DNA of 64,000 nt from Octopus sinensis (Eukaryota): positions 51,398,001-51,462,000 of the forward strand of contig NC_043004.1 of assembly GCF_006345805.1 (NCBI RefSeq). Direction: 5' to 3'. Position numbers and translations under genes: made by a program. Shown here one piece after another: positions 417-54,664 of the stretch (positions are counted from its first letter, which is position 1; each line of letters begins with the position of its first letter). A model generated the notes under the pieces. It was not told the DNA's origin, searched no databases, and saw nothing but the letters and a program-made list of their open reading frames with translations.

Positions 417-439
417 ACAAATAAAATATATATATGTGA

Positions 440-735
440 AGTATATTTGCCACTTAAATGTGGCTAACCACTAAGGGTGGATGCTATTGTAGCTTGTAGC
501 CCCAGGAGAACATCTTCTCCAGCTGGCTATTGACACACTTTCTGTTCCCTATCAGTATTTGCAAAGGGAAGCAATCCTTCCCATCATCGACCTCACGTGA
601 TACGTACGGACCCGGGTTTCTGGGTATTTACCCGTCTCAGGGCTCGACAATCACCTGTCTTCGATGCGAAGGGGTCCCAATGCAAATACATATATCCTTT
701 TTCGAGTGACGAAAAGTCACTGATCTCGAAAAAGT
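440..735 (+). repeat. Unassigned structured interspersed repeat, copy A
   Basis: Aligns by eye with 34320-34565 and partly with 39850-39930; contains helices gccac/gtggc, ggagaa/ttctcc and gtatttgca/tgcaaatac. Confidence 0.6.
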
Positions 736-748
736 GTAAACAAGCAAT

Positions 749-13433: not shown

Positions 13434-13646
13434 ATTATGTGAAATAGAAAGATGAATAATCTTGTAGTAGATTAATCAAAAGTTTAACCGATACCTTAGT
13501 AGCAAAAATCACAGCAGTAAACGGCACGGTTGGAGGTACAACCATCAGGCGTTGCAACCGTGCGTTGGTGCGGATAATTGAAATTAAAACATTATTGGTG
13601 AATTGAAGAAATGGAGCTGAACGCAGATTGAACAGAAATCGTTTTA

Positions 13647-13734
13647 TTTCATTCTACACGTGTTTCGAAAGGCACAAATTACCAAAATCCGATTGAATAA
13701 TGGGACCATATTGTGTCTTTCTCTTCAGGAAGAA
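13647..13734 (-). ncRNA. Type I hammerhead ribozyme, inverted pLTR copy
   Basis: Mirror copy of 15434-15519. Confidence 0.8.
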
Positions 13735-13769
13735 AAAAGGAAATCCGTTGGAAAAACAAAAACAGAACA

Positions 13770-14777
13770 GAGGCAGATGGTTTGTAATCCCCTTTGGTAA
13801 GCAGATTAGAACTAACCTCCCCCTCATGTTTAGACAAGCCATCGCCAATAACTTCCCCAGAAATTCCAAATATTACTCCACGGTTAACTCACATAAAGTT
13901 AGGATAGCTTTCTCCAACACTAAAAACCTCGCCCAGATAATCGCCTCCCATATAATAGGCTACTTACTAAGACCCTATCACCTTTTTCCGGAGGCACACC
14001 TCTTCCGCCCCCGGTTTTAATGCTCAGTAGGAATAATTATAGTAGTAATAATGATATGAGAGCCAGTACAGTGACACATAATCTCAGCTCCAGCCAGGGA
14101 GTACCCGCTAGGGGTATAGTTATAAATAGGGGTGTTGTGGTTGACGGTAACAATGGGAGTAGGGTAGAGAGCCCCATTAGCATCCCCAGCATCATTTCCA
14201 CAATAGCAGTACCACGGGCAGTAGCAATGACAGCACTCTGATAGATAGTGGAGAATCAGGGGTTATTCCTATAGTTAATAGTGACGTAGTGGAAAATAGA
14301 GTAGTAAGCGGCTGCAGGTCTCGGAACGAATATAGTGACAGGAACGCAGTTCTAATTTCAGAAACCAATCCTAGCAGATTAAGATTCACGTCGGCGAACT
14401 CCAAGATCAAAAACGCCGTCTACCAATGCAAGGTTTACACGGACTCAGATGCCTTCACTTATGTAGGGGCATCATCCTCAAGATTGTCTTTGCGTGTCTC
14501 CAACCATTACGCAACTTTTCGGGACGTGAACAAGCGCCAGACCACGGGACTCAGTAAGCTAATATGGCGACTGAAGGATGCGAACTTAAGCTATAGGCTG
14601 GAATGGTCAATTTTGTCGGTGGCCCTCCCATTTGATAGGGGCAGAAGACAGTGCAACCTTTGTGTCTCCGAACTCTTCCATATTTTGTTTGCCAGAGGCC
14701 GGATGGTAAACGGGCTCTTACAGTCGGCTTTTCGATGCCCCCATTGGCGGCGTTACACTTATCTGGCCTTTAAATAG
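13770..14777 (+). pseudogene. Penelope-like ORF C-terminus: RT thumb region, linker and GIY-YIG endonuclease, two frameshifts
   Basis: WFVIPFGKQIRTNL...KVRIAFSNTKNLAQIIASH (PLE thumb-like); NAVYQC...TYVG...RVSNH...LEWSIL...CNLCVSE...CPH (GIY-YIG); frameshifts near 13951 and 14190. Confidence 0.85.
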
Positions 14778-15433
14778 CGTTTATAAATAATACCGGCACC
14801 CATAGCCCTTGGTAACAAATTCTGAAATAGCCTTTAAGATATCTACGATTAACCACTGCAAGGGGAATTACTCCTGTAAGACAAACGGGGCTTGGTTTTT
14901 TCACAGCGGGGGGTTTCCTTGACAAGGCAGGCTTAGATGAACACACACACACATAAAACATAATTGATTGATTGATTGATTCTAGTTTCAGCTTATGAGC
15001 TGTGGCCATGCTGAATATATATATAATTTTTTTATTTTTTTCTTTCTGCCACCCAACGGTTATCACGGCAGTAGCCACTGACAGCCGAACGATCAAACGC
15101 ACACACGTACACAAAAAATGTTTTCTACCCCTACGCCAACACACACATATATAGAACAGTATACACACACACACGTCTCTAAGTAGATTTTTTCTCGCCC
15201 CTTATAAAACATCCAATATTCTTTAAATAGTCAGAACTTTATTCTCGGTCACAAAGAACATCTATACACCCTCACCCACATGATTGACCGATGCCTGACC
15301 CGTTGAATTCTTCAGCCACCGGTTCTCAACATACACTGATAAACAGTTTCGCCATGGGCTCTTAGGAGCACAGTTCGATTTGGTTTTTGCTCCGCCTCTG
15401 TTCTGTTTTTGTTTGTCCAACGGATTTCCTTTT

Positions 15434-15519
15434 TTCTTCCTGAAGAGAAAGACACAATATGGTCCCATTATTCAATCGGATTTTGGTAATTTGTGCCTTT
15501 CGAAACACGTGTAGAATGA
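15434..15519 (+). ncRNA. Type I hammerhead ribozyme
   Basis: ttc-CTGAAGA-gaaagacaca...tgtgcctttc-GAAA-cacgtg-TA-gaa: full core, stem I ttc/gaa, long stem II, palindromic stem III. Confidence 0.85.
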
Positions 15520-15576
15520 AATAAAACGATTTCTGTTCAATCTGCGTTCAGCCATTTCTTCAATTCACCAATAATG

Positions 15577-15800
<224 letters not shown>

Positions 15801-20892: not shown

Positions 20893-21477
20893 TGTAGTGG
20901 ATGCGTGGATGTATTAATAAATACATAAGTGCTTTGTAATAAATTAAAGATTTATTATCACTACATCAATTTGTAAGCAATGTTACACATCGCTTGTACA
21001 AAATGCATATTAAATAGTGGTTGCAAATAATACATATTAAAGGAATGCATAATACAGGATACACATTAAAGCAGAATATGTTTGATGGTGTGTGTGTGTG
21101 CGTGTGTGTAAATCATGCATGACAGAGTCACCTTTCTGATTATTCTTTCGTCGTCCTCATAAATGCGTGACGTTCTCTTAAACGTTGGTTCGGGTTCTCT
21201 CTAGATACCCATTTCTCCGTTCTATTTATAACATCTCAAATAGCCAGAAAAATAGATATACCGCAAGAGTGTTATTGCGTACAGTAGGTCGCTGGTCGTC
21301 CTGTTAAACTTCGCCTGACCTGCTCGGGTCAGAGGTCGAAGGGAGACGATCCATCATTTTTTGTCAGAACAAAGAGATTCTGATTTCGCGCCTTTTTGTG
21401 CATTGGTATTTTACGACCAATGATTCTTGGGTCTGATTTCGAATCCAAGCTTAGAGAAGGAAGTGCTAATTCTTACA
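20893..21477 (-). repeat. 3' LTR (585 bp)
   Basis: Direct repeat of 26187-26770; adjacent PPT agaaggggggtag on the minus strand at 21478-21490. Confidence 0.97.
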
Positions 21478-22049
21478 CTACCCCCCTTCTAGTGAGAAAG
21501 CCACAGAGATCGAACGATATTGGAATTGTATTATTATTATTATTTTATTTTATTTTTTTTTTTGATTGTGTGCATGTAGAAAAAAATTTTTTTTACACAT
21601 TGAACGATAAAAATATGCATGAAAGGTTTACAATTTGTGTGTGCTATATGGTGGGCAATATGTATATGTGCCCAGGCAGAATTATGTTGGCGCGTTGAAA
21701 GAGATGTGCGTCTATTGAGTACACTCGACCTACTAGGTCTAATAGAGGCAAGGTGTCTTTCAGTGGCGAAAAAATATCGAGTGATAGCACGCATGAGAAC
21801 AAGATTTGTAAATGTGTGTGGATATACAGTTAGCAAAAAAAATATATTTATGAGAAAGCAAACATTTTGAAGAGAAAACCAAAAAATATGTACATGCAAA
21901 AATGAAAGAATTGTTCATCGGCAAAGTTCGATTTTGAAATGTTCCGTAAAAGTTCATACAGACAGTTTTTGTTTTCATTTTTTTTTTTTTTCTTTACGTA
22001 CACAAATGTTCTTTGATTTCTCTGGGTGGGTGATGCAGTTATGTGTTCA

Positions 22050-25000
22050 TTAGGAAGATGGATACGTTAGGAGTTCAGAACTTACCCGAAAAACTTGCAC
22101 AAACCTTGCTGGCCATCGAACTGTTCTTCCTGATTTGGTGTGTCGGGGTTGTGCAGCATCTGTGGTGTTCGCTGGAGTTGCCGAGTCTGTTTGAGGAAAA
22201 GAGGGGACTGAATGTAAGTCCTCCTCGATGAAAGCTTTTTTTAAACGATCAATCGAGACCGTATTTCGTTTACCTCCAATATCGAGGACGAAATACTTGG
22301 GTTCTCTTTTGATGACCTTGTAGGGCCCGGAATATGGTGGTCGAAGTTGAGAGGGTATCCCATCATTCCTCACGAAGACATGAGTCCATGTGTTGATATC
22401 TTTTGGGACACGTGAAACGACGTTCTGTTGTCTGGGGCCTGAGGGTGATACTTGCGACATGGATGTTCGTAATCGGTGCACATATTGTTGTGGGTCAGGG
22501 AAGTTTTGTGAAACAGGTTCGATCATCTGCCCAGGTAAGGTGAGTGTTGTGCCATAAACGAGTTCGGCCGGAGTATATCCCAGTTCTTCCTTAATCGTGG
22601 ATCGAATTCCAAGGAGGATGAGAGGGAGATGTTCCAACCAGTGAGAACTGTCTGGAGCAGCTTTTATAGATGCCTTGAGTTGGCGGTGAAAGCGTTCCAC
22701 CATGCCATTTGCTGCAGGGTGGTAAGCTGTAGTGCGGGTGTGTTTACACCCGAGGAGACGAGTCAGCTCGGTGAAAAGGTGGGAATCGAACTGACGTCCT
22801 CTGTCGGTGGTAATTGTTGCGGGTGTGCCAAAACGCGAAACCCATTGTGATATCAGCGTTTTAGCGACCGTTTCTGCTGATATATCAGATAGGGGCCAGG
22901 CTTCGGGCCATCGCGAGAACCTATCTACGCAAGTTAGCAAATATGAATAGTTCTGCGAAGGTGGCAGGGGTCCAACGATATCAATGTGAACGTGCTGAAA
23001 TCGTGCATTGGGCTGCGAAAATGAACCGATTGGTGATTTTATGTGCCGGTGGATTTTCGCTTTTTGGCACGCAACACAGCACTTGGTCCATTCTCTGATA
23101 TCCTTGTTGATACTGGTCCACACAAAACGGGTCGATATTAGCTTTTGAGTGGAGCGAATACCAGGATGTGACAGAGAATGTAGAGCGGAGAAAACTTCTC
23201 GACGATATTTCTGTGGTACATAAGGGCGTTGGTAACCAGTGGAAATATCACACCAAATATGGGCTGTGGATGATGGTAGTGGAACATGCTGAAATTTCAG
23301 AGATGACGAATTCCGGAGCTTTAGAAGTTCTTCGTCATTCTCCTGGTCAGCTGCTATACGTGCCAGATCAATTGTAGACGTGGTGTGGATAGCATTGATC
23401 TGCGCACGTGAAAGTGCATCGGCTGCCACGTTGGTCGTCCCTTTGATGTGGCGTATATCCGTCGTGTACTGCGATATGAAGTCGAGGTGGCGTATTTCTC
23501 TTGGCGAATGGCGATCCGGTTTGGTGTTAAATGCGTATACTAATGGCTTGTGGTCGGTATATATGGCAAAATTGGTACCTTCTAGCATATGACGGAAATG
23601 CTTAACGGGCAGGTATGCCGCCAATAATTCCCGACTGAATGTGCTGTATTTGGTTTCCGCGGGTTTTAACCGCTTAGAAAAGAAAGACAACGGTTGCCAT
23701 ATACCGTCAACAAGCTGTTGTAGCACACCTCCGATTCCGGAATCGGATGCATCAACGAGTAAACATCGTGGGGCGTCTGGTTTTGGATAAACCAACATGG
23801 TAGCGCTAGATAACGCTTTTTTCAGGGCAGCGAAAGAAACGAGTTGATCTTCGGTCAGAGCTATATCTGCATTTTTGCAGGTTCGCTGACGTAGCAAATC
23901 CGTGAGCGGTTGCGCTATTTCAGCGAGGTGGGGCACGAACCGTCGATAGAAATTCGCTAGACCGAGATATTCCCTTAATTTGCGGAGAGATGTGGGTGGT
24001 GGAAAATCCACGATGGCCTTGACTTTCTCGGGAAGGGGACGAATTCCATTTTTATCGACTATATGGCCGAGAAAATGAAGGGAAGCAACTCCGAACAAAC
24101 ATTTAGTAGGGTTGATAACAATTCCGAATTTACATAAACGTTCGAATAGCAGGTGAAGGTGTTGATTATGCTCTTCGTCCGAGTTACTGGCCACGAGTAT
24201 GTCGTCTATGTAGGCATAGACGAAAGGCAAACCTCTAGTCACCATGTCGATAAACCTTTGGAATGTCTGTGCCGCGTTTCGTAAACCGAAAGGCATACGC
24301 AGGAATTCAAACATTCCGAAAGGTGTAGTCACTGCTGTCTTTGAGATGTCTGCAGGTTCGACTGGGATTTGGTTGTATGCTCGCACCAGGTCGATTTTTG
24401 AAAAGATGCGAGCTCCATGCAGCGAGCTCGAAAAGTCCTGAAGAAAAGGCACCGGATAGGCATCACTGATAGTGCTTTTATTCAGTGATCGATAATCGCC
24501 GCAAACCCGCCAATCGGTCGATGATTTTTTTGGGACGCAGTGTATCGGCGAGGACCAGTTGCTGCTGGAAACGCGGATGATTCCGAGGTCGAGCATGTGC
24601 TGGAATTCCCGCTTGACGGCCTGGAGACGATCAGGTGGTAACCTTCTGGGCCTTGCAGCAACAGGTGGACCGCTGGTTTTGATGTGGTGGGTAACGTCGT
24701 GCTTTATCGGCTGGTTATGAAAAACTGGCCGGGTGACATCTGGATAATCATTCAGGATGGAACTGTGACGAGTCGTTGTCGTAAGCATTACAGTTGGGCT
24801 GACTGTGTCCATTCGAGCGGCTATACCGCGCACAGTAAGCTTGGTGGTGGTGTCGACAAGTCGTCTGTTCTTTATGTCTACCAGGAGACCGAAATGATGC
24901 AGGAAATCGGCTCCTAAGATAGGGGTCGGCAGTTTAGCGACGACGAATACCCACTGAAATGTGCGGCGTAGTCCTATGTTTAATGTTAGGGACTGTTCAC

Positions 25001-25217
25001 CGTAGGTTGGAATGGGTGAATGGTTGACTGCCTGAAGACAGACTGATGTCTCTTTTATTTTTCCAGAAGTGTTGGAGACTGGGATGATGCTGACTTCCGC
25101 ACCTGTGTCAACCAGGAAACGCGTGCCTGTTACACGATCGCAAACGAAAAACAGGCGACTGTGTGGGTGCGAACCAGGAACTTCCGTCGCGTTCAATTCC
25201 TGGCTGTGCCGTTTCCC
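22050..25217 (-). CDS. pol: Pol polyprotein (protease, RT, RNase H, integrase), reached by -1 frameshift from gag
   Basis: LVDTGA; MPFGL and YIDD; DASD...ELLA...TDH; HHCC zinc finger, D-D35-E integrase core, GPY motif; no internal stops (ORF track 22050-25292). Confidence 0.97.
25155..25217 (-). promoter_or_regulatory. -1 programmed ribosomal frameshift signal
   Basis: G GGA AAC slippery heptamer in the gag frame, 5-nt spacer, 11-bp stem, loop gcgac complementary to downstream gtcgc. Confidence 0.8.
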
Positions 25218-26068
25218 GAACTGGGTGAGGAAAACGAGCACGGTACCGTACATTTTTGTGCCCGTGTTCCGAATGTTCGGTGGTACCAACACGTGTCATG
25301 TGAGTTTCGGGTAGCACTGGGGCTTCGAGACCGTCTGCCATCTCGTCGAGATCGGCTGGTGCTTCGACGCTGGGGACTAAACTTTAGGGCTTGTATTTGG
25401 GCTGTAAGAATTTGCATTTGCGCAGCTTGCTGCGTCATTAATGCACGCAAATCCGAAATCTCTGAAGAACTGGTTTGTGCACGGAAAGGATTGGTACTGG
25501 GAGCGGCTGGCGTCACCGTCGATACCGTTGGATATCTGTGCGGTACTTCGGCTATTTTGTCAGCTAGCTCCGCCAGTTCTTCAAGGGATGTGTTTTCTCT
25601 GGTGGACGCGAGAACAACCTGGGTATTGGAGGGCAGACGCTGGAGAAAAAGTTGCTTGAAGATTTTTTCTGGGAGCGTCTCATCTCCGAGAAGCTGTTTC
25701 ATTCTCCGAAGAAGCTGGGACGGCGTTTTGTCACCCAATTCTTCCGATATCAGAAGCTGGTGAAGTCTTTTTTGTTGGGATTCTGAGGTTCTGTTTATTA
25801 ACGTGGTTTTAAAAACTTCATATGAAACAGAACCGGGTGGTGCCATGATAAGGTCGCGTATCACGTTCGTTATTTCTGGTGACAGAGAACTGATAACGTG
25901 AGAAAGTCGAGCCGCATCGCTCGATATTCTGTGAGAGGCAAACTGTGCCTCTATATGGTGAAACCACAATGTCGGGTCGTGGGTCCAGAATGGTGGAATT
26001 TTTAACGAGATCGCCGCTTGGAATGCCATGTCGATGTTGGCCGCTGGGTTTTGTTCCGGGAGATTCAT
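25193..26068 (-). CDS. gag: Gag protein, 291 aa
   Basis: [14 protein letters not shown]...[13 protein letters not shown] capsid-like region; C-terminal CWYH...C...C (CHCC) motif. Confidence 0.93.
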
Positions 26069-26173
26069 TGTTTTCGTCGGAATTTTCAGTTGCTTCGTTG
26101 CTGGTGATGTGCAAACTGTAATTCTTCGACGCGGTTGATGAAGCTGGTTCCAGGGAAGGCGCGATTCGTTTTA

Positions 26174-26184
26174 CGGGGTCACCA
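26174..26184 (-). promoter_or_regulatory. Primer binding site, tRNA-Trp type
   Basis: TGGTGACCCCG located 2 nt inside the 5' LTR boundary. Confidence 0.85.
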
Positions 26185-26186
26185 AA

Positions 26187-26770
26187 TGTAGTGGATGGGT
26201 GGATGTATTAATAAATACATAAGTGCTTTGTAATAAATTAAAGATTTATTATCACTACATCAATTTGTAAGCAATGTTACACATCGCTTGTACAAAATGC
26301 ATATTAAATAGTGGTTGCAAATAATACATATTAAAGGAATGCATAATACAGGATACACATTAAAGCAGAATATGTTTGATGGTGTGTGTGTGTGCGTGTG
26401 TGTAAATCATGCATGACAGAGTCACCTTTCTGATTATTCTTTCGTCGTCCTCATAAATGCGTGACGTTCTCTTAACGTTGGTTCGGGTTCTCTCTAGATA
26501 CCCATTTCTCCGTTCTATTTATAACATCTCAAATAGCCAGAAAAATAGATATACCGCAAGAGTGTTATTGCGTACAGTAGGTCGCTGGTCGTCCTGTTAA
26601 ACTTCGCCTGACCTGCTCGGGTCAGAGGTCGAAGGGAGACGATCCATCATTTTTTGTCAGAACAAAGAGATTCTGATTTCGCGCCTTTTTGTGCATTGGT
26701 ATTTTACGACCAATGATTCTTGGGTCTGATTTCGAATCCAAGCTTAGAGAAGGAAGTGCTAATTCTTACA
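26187..26770 (-). repeat. 5' LTR (584 bp)
   Basis: Differs from the other LTR by about one substitution and one indel (by eye). Confidence 0.97.
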
Positions 26771-33464: not shown

Positions 33465-33644
33465 AAGAAATATATTCCTATAGAGCTGAGGAGTAGGTTT
33501 CGCCCGAACTTCCAGCTCCCGCATTGAAGTGATGTATACAAAGCTACAGAGCGTCAGCCTACCATGACAGACTCGAGAATTGGAATAGCCTAAAAATGTC
33601 ATGGCTACCATCGGCCTTATTCTTCTAACTCATTAAAAACTATA

Positions 33645-34035
33645 TCTTTATATATAAAAGTAAGGTTGTGTGTCTGTCTACTCCGATTTAGATTCCTAAC
33701 TACTCCCACATTTTGCGGTGCACTTTAACCAAAAGCGGGTATCTTATAGTCGTGATTCATATCGAGCCCTTCTGGGTATTAGCGCGCGTCTACGATGAGT
33801 CTACGATTTTAAAAATAATTTACCATCATTTTTTTCCATTTTAATGCATTTTTTAATATAAGGGAAGTAACTCTCTAAAAATGTCTACGATGAGTCAACG
33901 ATTTAAAAAAAAAATTACCATCATATTTTTTCCATTTTTAATGCATTTTTTTGCTATTTTTTTGCTATAACTCTCTAAAAATGCTTTATAGTTATTTCCC
34001 TTACAAACCCGAGCAACGCCGGGCGATACTGCTAG
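33645..34035 (+). mobile_element. Non-autonomous Helitron
   Basis: A|TC start, hairpin cccgagcaacgccggg, CTAG|T end; empty site visible in the paralog near 38000. Confidence 0.88.
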
Positions 34036-34319
34036 TACATTTATATAATACACCAACCAGTGTCTCTATGGCTGCCTATTTGGTTGTCTCTCTGCCTGTA
34101 TTCTTCTACTTCCCTAGTCATCATCTCCGTTAGTCTCCCACTTCTACTGCTCATTCTCTCTTATTTTTCTGTCAAAACTAGCTTCTTTACTTGTTAAGTT
34201 TGACAATACTATCTGTTAACAACTCGTCAGTCCCGTCCAACTTTAGTTATATGTGTGGATATAATAGCATTAATAAATCTCCGAACGATATATAAACAGT
34301 AACCGCTCGACAACGTAAA

Positions 34320-34565
34320 GTGTACTAGCCATCTGAATGTGGCTAGCCACTGGGGGTGGGTGTTACTGACGCTTTTAGCCCCAGGAGATTGACGTCTCCA
34401 GCTGGCCTTAGACACAATTTCAGTGCCCTTGTGTTATTTGCAAAGGGAGGTCATTCTCTCTCGAAAACCTAAGTGATACATTCGGACTATAGTTTCAAGG
34501 TTTTTGCCTCTCGTCAACGTATGGTAAACACCGGTTTTCGATGAAGGAGACCTTTGCAAATAATA
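34320..34565 (+). repeat. Unassigned structured interspersed repeat, copy B
   Basis: Homologous to 440-690; long-range stems ttatttgcaaagg/cctttgcaaataa and tcgaaaacc/ggttttcga. Confidence 0.6.
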
Positions 34566-34601
34566 TTTAACGTTTTTCCCAATGAAAAAGGGTGATAAGT
34601 C

Positions 34602-39218: not shown

Positions 39219-40207
39219 AATGACTTTTTTTTTTAAATCCCCAGTTTTTATGTTTAAAGTACATAATTAGACGATACATTCCATTCTCTTGAGGTAGCTG
39301 ATGTCTCACCCTAATTATCATTAGCCACTATAGAGACTCAAACCCAGGACATTCACGTTAATCAATAGAGCCCAACGGGTAATTGAAAGAATCAGCCTCT
39401 CTGAATCAAACGGAAAAGTTCCATTGAATCTACTTTACAAACTTTTAGTTCAACAGCTCTCATCATTTTGGTAGATTTCCTGGGAATATGTGGTTAGATT
39501 CTTTCCTGTATGAAATCAGTTTTCCTTGTAAAAGCAGGCGAACAATGGTCGTTTCTTCGTTTTATTATTTCGGTCATTGGATTGAGACCATCCTGGGGTA
39601 TCAACTTGAAAACTTCTATACTAAATTATAGAATTATAATTTCAACTTCAGTCACGTCAGTTTCTCAGAATCTTAGAATTGGGAACCTTAAGATATCATG
39701 GTTACTATTGACCTTCCTCTGACTTACAATTCTAAATTATACACATTTATATATCAGAAATACTAAATTTCTAAATCTCTCGTAGAGACATGTACGGTGG
39801 TGGGGCGATAGAATGGTTGTATACTGTCAATCTAACACGAACGTGACAGTAGGGGGTACACCACCGCTGTTTAGCCCTAGGAAGCATCGACGCCTCCTGA
39901 CGGCTTTGACACATTTTTCCTGTGTCCTTATATACATTTACGAAGGGGAGACAAATACCCTCAGCCGCCCGGGCTGCATTTATATAATACACCATAAAGT
40001 GTTCCTATCTCTGTCTGTCTCTCTGTCGCTCCACTTTCTCTTTCCCTCGCTTTTTATTCCTCTTCCTATCTGCCTCTCCACACCTATTCGTCAGTTTCCT
40101 TCCTCCCTTAACTCTAATGTCAGACGAAATCTGACTACACAATCACGCTGTTCAAAGTCTAGATATATGTGTGAATGGAAGAATTTTTATCAGCGTTCGT
40201 CGCATTC

Positions 40208-40291
40208 GGTCGGTTAGCTCAGTTGGTTAGAGCGTCTCGGGTTAGAGCGTCTCGGGTTAGAGCGTCTCGGGTTCGAGCGCCATACTGATCG
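40208..40291 (+). pseudogene. tRNA-Ile pseudogene, anticodon arm replaced by a 3x15-bp repeat
   Basis: ggtcggttagctcagtt(ggttagagcgtctcg)x3 ggttcgagcgccatactgatc. Confidence 0.8.
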
Positions 40292-53827: not shown

Positions 53828-54664
53828 CTTCTATCTACAAATGTTCTAAAATCTATACACAGCCTTGGTTTTTTGTCCCATTATGAAAAAAATTTATATA
53901 TATATATATAATAAAAAAAAAACTGCCGTTATGCCTGGCAACGAGTACCCGTCATCGAGGAGAACCAATAGAGATCAAAACCACGTTGTTTGGTGGTCAT
54001 AAAGCTAGGGTAACAGGAGTTATGTCCCGCTTGCAATAAATACCAGGCGGGAGACGCGCACTGAATAAACCAGCCGGAGGAGATGTCTTCCTCTGCTTCA
54101 ATGGCAGTATCGTCGTCTTTTAGAAGACAATCATATTAGAGGGGCCATAAACACTGCAAAAAAAGAAATATTTTTGATCATTGATCGATTTTCAATAAGA
54201 TTCAGTGGTGGGTATAACACTTCCAAGCAGGAAATGCCGAACGAGCCTCTCTTTGTGTCTCCTCCAAAAATATCCTCAAATACTCAATGAATTCTCTCAC
54301 TTTTCCGCCATCGGTCTCATATAATTTTTGTGGAAATATTTCGTTTCACAAACGTTTATTTGCATCTGGAGTAATTCCAGCGATAACAACTGGATTGCTC
54401 TCAACGTAACAGTAAAGAACTTGTAGTCGTAAACGCGTTAAAGGTTAATGATTAATAACTAGTTATCAGCAAAGATAACTATCGACCACTTGGTCTGAAA
54501 CAAATCGAAAGCCAAAGGAAGGTCGAGGAAAAGGCCAACAATCGCAAAATCTAATTGGTATTGGAAATCCCCAGGCGAAAAGGAATCTACTTCACCATCA
54601 TAAACATTACGGAGATGTACTCGCATAGCAAGTAATTTGATCTGAGATGGTGTGCTGAAACGAA

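What the first reader, a model, noticed from the sequence alone, without database searches (positions are those of the whole stretch)
440..735. Unassigned structured RNA-like motif in three diverged copies
Seen in sequence: 440-690, 34320-34565 and 39850-39930 share a core approximating gct-N-TAGCCC(C/T)AGGA-loop-TCC(A/T)G-NN-GGC-NNN-GACACA-ttt-c-(T/A)GT-NCC while loops differ (ggagaa-catc-ttctcc versus ggaga-ttgacg-tctcc). Copies A and B keep an enclosing stem with a compensatory change (gtatttgca/tgcaaatac versus ttatttgca/tgcaaataa) and inner stems of different sequence (catcga/tcgatg versus tcgaaaacc/ggttttcga). In copy B, ctgggg can pair with ccccag. By eye it matches none of the hammerhead, twister, pistol or HDV cores. 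Inference: a conserved functional RNA or ssDNA structure, such as a new ribozyme or a replication/packaging signal, carried by a non-coding mobile element family.
Basis: partly seen in the sequence, partly recalled or inferred. Interest (0 to 1): 0.72.

Follow-up and report, generated by a model that had tools for sequence, protein, structure and literature searches.

The report
Retrozyme RNA fold at copying starts

Summary
Copies A (434-748), B (34267-34580) and C (39754-39979) each belong to a high-copy subfamily of one circularly permuted 352-361-nt non-coding repeat. Six subfamilies were found; the five compared are 57-85% identical. A fourth copy lies at 53920-54153. The minus strand carries a type I hammerhead motif with palindromic helix III and covarying stems, which Rfam misses. 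Sense 3' ends fall at two fixed sites (at least 160 of 176 pieces). Of 50 two-armed insertions, 40 pair site 1 with site 2 and none repeats a site. This is the Penelope 'tail' footprint. So the element is a non-LTR retrozyme, a known class (PMC7229834; 2026 preprint), and this scan has found other such families in this and other genomes. It is a covarying domain between the ribozyme and the end sites, with a candidate pseudoknot kept in 6 of 6 subfamilies, and it likely docks the reverse transcriptase. I found no description of it in print. Cleavage, circles, expression and the partner element are untested or not found.

The parts
434..748 (-). Subfamily A copy (monomer 357 nt), 5'-truncated, 3' end at fixed site 1 (no tail), between (TA)n runs
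603..646 (-). Type I hammerhead motif of copy A; predicted cleavage between 609 and 608; this copy has a 1-nt deletion in the core and a damaged helix I
434..548 (-).
34267..34580 (-). Subfamily B copy (monomer 351-354 nt), 5'-truncated, 3' end at fixed site 2 (with tail), about 20 nt upstream of a tRNA-Ile(AAT)-like gene
34479..34523 (-). Type I hammerhead motif of copy B, with the U3-G8 core found in 17 of 17 B copies; predicted cleavage between 34485 and 34484
34297..34427 (-). 3' domain of copy B: H2 (34411-34427), H3 (34377-34407), P1 (34362-34368 with 34297-34303) enclosing H1, H0 and end site 1 (34312)
34267..34311 (-). Tail of copy B: 45 nt between end site 1 and end site 2, holding the P1 3' arm and a small hairpin
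39754..39979 (-). Subfamily C copy (monomer 361 nt), 5'-truncated just downstream of the hammerhead, so it lacks it; 3' end at site 2
39795..39926 (-). 3' domain of copy C: H2 (39909-39926), H3 (39873-39905), P1 (39860-39866 with 39795-39801), end site 1 at 39810
53920..54153 (+).

Best explanation
Shown: circularly permuted monomers, hammerhead anatomy with covarying stems, a conserved 3' fold, two fixed 3' ends 173-178 and about 216-233 nt after the predicted cleavage site, scattered 5' ends, and two-armed insertions pairing one end of each kind. Inferred: a multimeric transcript is cut by dimeric hammerheads (palindromic helix III) and may circularise. A Penelope-type RT-endonuclease binds the H2-H3-P1 domain, nicks both strands of AT-rich DNA, and primes one cDNA at each of the two internal sites. 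It can run past the monomer junction, which gives permuted partial tandems and inverted arms.
For: Hammerhead: the core, helix II, GAAAC, tetraloop and GUC align in all three families. Helix III plus loop is a perfect 8-nt palindrome in 5 of 5 consensuses, with four different sequences; helix I has 25 of 25 pairs intact with different sequences. A pattern for it gives 799 genome matches against 0 for the reversed control. Strand: the B monomer folds at z -5.5 on the minus strand and z -3.7 on the plus strand; G-U 11 against A-C 3. Ends: at least 160 of 176 pieces end at the two sites. Of 50 two-armed insertions, 40 are site 1 + site 2, none is 1+1 or 2+2, and 10 have one arm ending elsewhere. 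These match the PLE tail, inverted copies and (TA)n bias (PMC8557442) and two-site internal initiation shown in vitro (PMC11167929). 3' domain: 12 two-sided changes keep pairing and 1 breaks it; P1 has 4 of 7 pairs with two-sided change. Intact PLE ORFs (784 aa) exist in the genome.
Against: Rfam finds no ribozyme on any copy, even at E up to 5. Several subfamilies fix non-canonical cores: U3-G8 in 17 of 17 B copies; C4 in 25 of 30 C and 13 of 17 F copies; and a mismatch at the base of helix II in A, D and F. Cleavage may therefore be weak or absent; 8 of 9 Xenopus retrozymes tested did not cleave. No autonomous element with a homologous terminal repeat was found in 85 PLE loci sampled. The tail (45-55 nt) is longer than the 30-40 nt in print. 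One-sided changes in the 3' domain keep pairing 8 times and break it 10 times (several are helix edges or register offsets of my anchors). Related sequences inflate the shuffle test. Binding of an RT to this fold is untested.
Confidence: 0.8

Rival explanations
1. Same element, but the H2-H3 core is a second, unknown self-cleaving or ligating ribozyme.
For: H3 and its 4x3 internal loop are invariant in 5 of 6 subfamilies, while the hammerhead core drifts; a candidate pseudoknot is conserved; Rfam has no match.
Against: A hammerhead already accounts for processing. No end or junction maps to H3. Subfamily C changes three of the seven internal-loop bases yet is young (96-99% identity). Invariance beside RT start sites is equally explained by protein binding.
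Confidence: 0.07
2. The fold is only the general self-pairing that keeps a retrozyme circle stable or hidden; the start sites are set by short local sequence, and the pseudoknot is chance.
For: Retrozyme circles are described as highly self-paired (PMC7229834). A G-rich strand pairs easily with pyrimidine tracts, and the pseudoknot register was chosen after inspection. The subfamilies are related.
Against: The branched architecture and spacing are kept at 57-85% identity. P1 closes around site 1 using the tail. The pseudoknot register scores 30 of 30 pairs, against at most 23 at 52 other offsets and 21 on the opposite strand.
Confidence: 0.25
3. The units are detached terminal repeats (solo pseudo-LTRs) of an autonomous Penelope element, not an independently replicating RNA.
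For: PLEs leave many truncated copies with the same ends; Xenopus retrozymes are homologous to pLTRs.
Against: 75 of 176 pieces are longer than one monomer and wrap into their own start with no coding sequence between. No PLE ORF was seen fused to the unit in the loci translated, and no sampled PLE shares the sequence.
Confidence: 0.08
4. A DNA-level mobile element (MITE, Helitron-like ssDNA signal) or a tRNA-targeted element.
For: Hairpin-rich; copy B sits next to a tRNA gene and near a Helitron-like piece.
Against: No terminal inverted repeats or fixed 5' end; circular permutation; G-U asymmetry; a hammerhead motif. Only 1 of 60 loci has a tRNA gene, and it is the window's own.
Confidence: 0.01

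Closest known systems
Metazoan non-LTR retrozymes (Cervera and de la Pena 2020, PMC7229834: passages and the mussel section read; Li, Clavereau and Pollet 2026, bioRxiv 10.64898/2026.07.22.740005: abstract to discussion read, supplements closed)
   Same: Non-coding monomer of mussel-like size (350-390 nt there), one type I hammerhead per unit, coexistence with PLEs.
   Different: Mostly dispersed insertions of about 1-2 units, often with an inverted arm, rather than long arrays. Non-canonical cores are fixed in young subfamilies. No conserved 3' domain, fixed ends or site pairing is described in the parts read. No cephalopod is mentioned in PMC7229834 (0 occurrences).
EN+ Penelope-like elements, tail and internal initiation (Craig et al. 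2021, PMC8557442: passages; Frangieh et al. 2024, PMC11167929: main text, parts 1-2 of 4)
   Same: Two fixed 3' ends downstream of a hammerhead, tail at one end only, inverted 5'-truncated copies, partial tandems, AT-rich targets; first site in a small stem-loop in A, D and F.
   Different: No ORF; sites lie about 175 and 220-233 nt after the cleavage site; the tail is 45-55 nt; no homologous autonomous element was found.
Canonical metazoan type I hammerhead with palindromic helix III (Cervera and de la Pena 2014, PMC4209133: passages; Perreault et al. 2011, PMC3088659: passages and the core-variation section)
   Same: Helix I 5-7 bp, helix II 4 positions, 2-bp helix III with palindromic tetraloop (dimer type), GUC triplet. 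U4C is a known natural low-activity variant.
   Different: U3 with G8 (not the published U3-A8 swap) is fixed in subfamily B; there is a C-A or C-U mismatch at the base of helix II in A, D and F; Rfam models do not score it.

Membership tests
Type I hammerhead ribozyme | Core CUGANGA ... GAAA ... NUH in type I order | tested here: met
   Canonical in A (25 of 30 copies) and D (14 of 21); single-base variants fixed in B (U3), C and F (C4); mixed in G.
Type I hammerhead ribozyme | Helices I, II and III around the core | tested here: met
   Helix I 25 of 25 pairs, helix II 17 of 20, helix III plus loop a perfect palindrome in 5 of 5 consensuses; two-sided changes in 4 of 5 helix I pairs.
Type I hammerhead ribozyme | Match to an Rfam hammerhead model | tested here: not met
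   No hit in the window at E up to 1, or in 6 loci at E up to 5.
Type I hammerhead ribozyme | Loop 1-loop 2 tertiary contact | not tested
   Not examined.
Type I hammerhead ribozyme | Self-cleavage after the GUC | not testable with these tools
   Needs a cleavage assay or raw stranded reads.
Non-LTR retrozyme | Non-coding monomer of about 170-400 nt with one type I hammerhead | tested here: met
   Monomers of 352-361 nt; no ORF of 150 aa or more at the copies.
Non-LTR retrozyme | Tandem arrangement with two hammerheads in a row | tested here: met
   Met in a minority: L067 has two motifs 361 nt apart on one strand; 75 of 176 pieces exceed one monomer. All window copies are shorter than a monomer.
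Non-LTR retrozyme | Accumulates as circular RNA | not testable with these tools
   Only assembled contigs of runs guessed to be RNA were offered.
Non-autonomous Penelope-like element | Two fixed 3' ends (tail) and variable 5' ends | tested here: met
   At least 160 of 176 3' ends at two sites; no 8-nt bin holds more than 5 of the 5' ends.
Non-autonomous Penelope-like element | Inverted 5'-truncated copy, tail at one end only | tested here: met
   40 of 50 two-armed insertions are site 1 + site 2; none has the same site twice.
Non-autonomous Penelope-like element | AT-rich or microsatellite targets | tested here: inconclusive
   124 of 176 3' flanks are at least 10/12 A+T; no genomic control was run.
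Non-autonomous Penelope-like element | Homology to the terminal repeat of an autonomous PLE | tested here: inconclusive
   None in 35 + 50 PLE loci; these cover only a few of the genome's PLE families.
Pistol, HDV-like, twister, hatchet or hairpin ribozyme (for the named core) | Family consensus core and fold | tested here: not met
   No Rfam hit. By-eye comparison with recalled consensuses found only a partial pistol-like loop pairing on the plus strand, without the other conserved bases.

The most novel reading that the evidence does not exclude
The 3' domain is a pseudoknotted RNA module that binds a Penelope RT dimer and positions two active sites at two template starts at once, one per DNA strand. 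It would be a template-defining RNA for the retroelement RT closest to telomerase, and selection would keep it while the hammerhead core is free to decay.
Probability: 0.3. Interest if true: 0.72.

Novelty: new member of a known kind. Interest (0 to 1): 0.43.

Why it matters
The class is known, so this is not a new ribozyme. What RNA structure a Penelope RT recognises is still open: in vitro work narrowed it to a region and an AC-rich stem-loop (PMC11167929). Six diverged subfamilies of a 355-nt parasite give a natural covariation map of that signal, with exact start sites, a candidate pseudoknot and a strict site 1 + site 2 rule. That makes the priming mechanism directly testable once the partner protein is found. 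Young subfamilies with U3-G8 or C4 cores also allow a test of whether self-cleavage is needed for spread.

Tried and rejected
Rfam: no ribozyme or other relevant family. Plus-strand readings as pistol, HDV-like, hairpin, hatchet, twister, telomerase RNA or a Pol III small RNA were compared by eye with recalled consensuses and dropped; the plus strand is the antisense. tRNA targeting: 1 of 60 loci. RNAalifold on the MAFFT alignment missed H2, H3 and H0, because C is shifted by about 3 columns there; helices were therefore anchored by motif, and the H2 rows were mis-anchored and redone. Expression: no RNA holder listed; contigs of four runs guessed to be RNA cover parts of the B unit but cannot show strand, ends or circles. 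Partner search: a young PLE with a 784-aa ORF, its own U3-A8 hammerhead-like motif (read by eye) and a 34-nt tail has no similarity to the unit; 30 GIY-YIG loci and 20 loci of the window's PLE showed only scattered neighbouring insertions. Look-ups of copies A and B by sequence in earlier findings returned nothing. Literature searches; none listed a paper on octopus retrozymes or on a structured RT-binding domain in them. The library lacks most subscription papers, and the supplements of the 2026 preprint are closed and may list such families.

Full report
Setting. The window lies in a 2.72-Gb animal genome of 13,516 contigs, among microsatellites, SINE-like repeats and a tRNA-Ile(AAT) array. 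Earlier scan notes on this genome call it an octopus; I did not test that.

Observation. A and B align at 70.7% over 273 nt. Each copy heads its own genome-wide subfamily: 2725, 2182 and 2752 first-look candidates for A, B and C, with the 40 scored at 92-95%, 94-98% and 96-99% identity. Flanks show that the unit wraps into its own start, with monomers of 357, 351-354 and 361 nt. The three are homologous over the whole monomer.

Strand and ribozyme. On the minus strand all three have a type I hammerhead layout: helix I, YYGAYGA, helix II, GAAAC, four bases, GUC, helix I. A pattern for it matches 799 places against 0 for the reversed control and led to subfamilies D and F. The five consensuses are 57-85% identical. 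Helix I keeps 25 of 25 pairs with different sequences. Helix III plus its loop is a perfect 8-nt palindrome in all five, in four different sequences. This is the dimer-type design of metazoan type I hammerheads (PMC4209133; PMC3088659). The B monomer folds better on this strand (z -5.5 against -3.7). Against: Rfam scores no ribozyme, and cores deviate. B has U3 with G8 in 17 of 17 copies, C has C4 in 25 of 30 and F in 13 of 17, and A, D and F have a mismatch at the base of helix II. U4C is a known natural low-activity variant, and the published 3-8 swap is U3-A8. In the window, copy A has a deletion in the core, copy B has the family core with one helix I mismatch, and copy C is cut off before the motif.

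Insertion footprint. Across 130 loci of five subfamilies, at least 160 of 176 distinct pieces end at one of two sites, 173-178 or about 216-233 nt after the predicted cleavage site, while 5' ends scatter; 75 pieces are longer than a monomer. After dropping six loci fetched twice, 50 two-armed insertions all point their 3' ends outward. Forty pair site 1 with site 2, none repeats a site, and 10 have one arm ending elsewhere; one locus (L090) holds a duplicated insertion and counts twice. I ran this test because earlier notes reported the same rule in other families. The tail at one end only, inverted 5'-truncated copies and (TA)n bias are PLE hallmarks (PMC8557442). A PLE protein starts reverse transcription in vitro at two internal sites that delimit the tail, cuts and extends both strands, is predicted to be a dimer, and does not need hammerhead cleavage (PMC11167929). 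Only 1 of 60 loci has a tRNA gene.

On the sense strand it is hairpin H2 plus hairpin H3 with a 4x3 internal loop, about 60-120 nt after the cleavage site. It is followed by P1, whose 3' arm lies in the tail and which encloses H1, H0 and end site 1. On a MAFFT alignment of 20 chosen copies, 89% of cells pair. Seventeen of 46 pairs change on both sides (10.1 in shuffles, 0/500; slid controls 4-9), including 4 of 7 in P1; relatedness inflates this test, and C is misaligned in H2-H3. In motif-anchored consensuses, 12 two-sided changes keep pairing and 1 breaks it, one-sided changes split 8 to 10, and G-U outnumbers A-C 11 to 3. H2 and the base of H3 are nearly invariant, so the core's own covariation is modest. 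A sixth, older subfamily G (E 8e-20 to the profile) keeps H3 and P1 but has a different hairpin in place of H2, and has a copy at 53920-54153. Five bases of the H3 3' strand can pair with a tract 13 nt into P1 in 6 of 6 subfamilies (30 of 30 pairs, with a 1-nt shift allowed for C). The best of 52 other offsets gives 23, and the opposite strand gives 21. One position goes G-C, G-U, A-U. The register was chosen after inspection and it competes with the base of H3, so it is a candidate pseudoknot or switch.

Partner. The genome holds young PLEs with intact ORFs (784 aa; a second family). None of 85 sampled PLE loci carries a homologous terminal repeat, so the mobilising enzyme is unidentified.

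Mechanism. Shown: monomer, motif anatomy, conserved fold, end sites and their pairing. Inferred: transcription of partial tandems, dimeric self-cleavage and possibly circles (as shown for mussel), binding of a PLE protein to the 3' domain, and priming on both strands. I put 0.9 on a PLE-mobilised retrozyme and about 0.6 on the fold being the RT recognition signal.

Novelty. Non-LTR retrozymes and their PLE link are in print, and this scan has noted many such families, 80 notes fitting 'retrozyme' in this genome. These subfamilies were not found by sequence among earlier notes. The conserved 3' domain was not found in eight literature searches. Verdict: new member of a known kind with a useful undescribed structure; interest 0.43.

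Noticed in passing
window 13585-15581: Truncated young Penelope-like element: GIY-YIG-like frame at 14181-14777, inverted terminal copies (13585-13777 and 15391-15581, 97%) and a hammerhead-like motif near 15435-15520 (read by eye); dozens of genomic copies are identical over 135 aa.
   Followed up: partly
window 2935-57600: Cluster of tRNA-Ile(AAT) genes and decayed copies, with four identical intact copies (20456, 45023, 50382, 55168) and a tRNA-Arg(TCG) at 2935; the copy at 40209 has a short internal triplication.
   Followed up: no
window 20893-26770: Young LTR retrotransposon with 99.7% identical 585-bp LTRs and long gag and pol frames on the minus strand.
   Followed up: no
window 33640-34037: Short element with Helitron-like ends (hairpin before CTAG), judged by eye, upstream of copy B.
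   Followed up: no
L151 (G000:C12:27283500-27293499): Tandem 4.4-kb PLE with a separate upstream frame of about 300 aa before the 784-aa RT-endonuclease frame, a U3-A8 hammerhead-like motif and two fixed ends 34 nt apart.
   Followed up: partly
L215, L218 and related loci: Further PLE families with U3-A8 hammerhead-like motifs and palindromic helix III about 60-100 nt before their ends.
   Followed up: no
L092 1299-1590: A retrozyme copy inserted into a PLE 3' region just upstream of that PLE's own hammerhead-like motif.
   Followed up: partly
window 3497 (-) and 53780 (+): Two isolated hammerhead-like motifs with a C4 core, not part of the subfamilies studied.
   Followed up: no
L252 354-530: Weak match (E 6e-4) to the six-subfamily profile; possibly a seventh, more diverged subfamily.
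   Followed up: no
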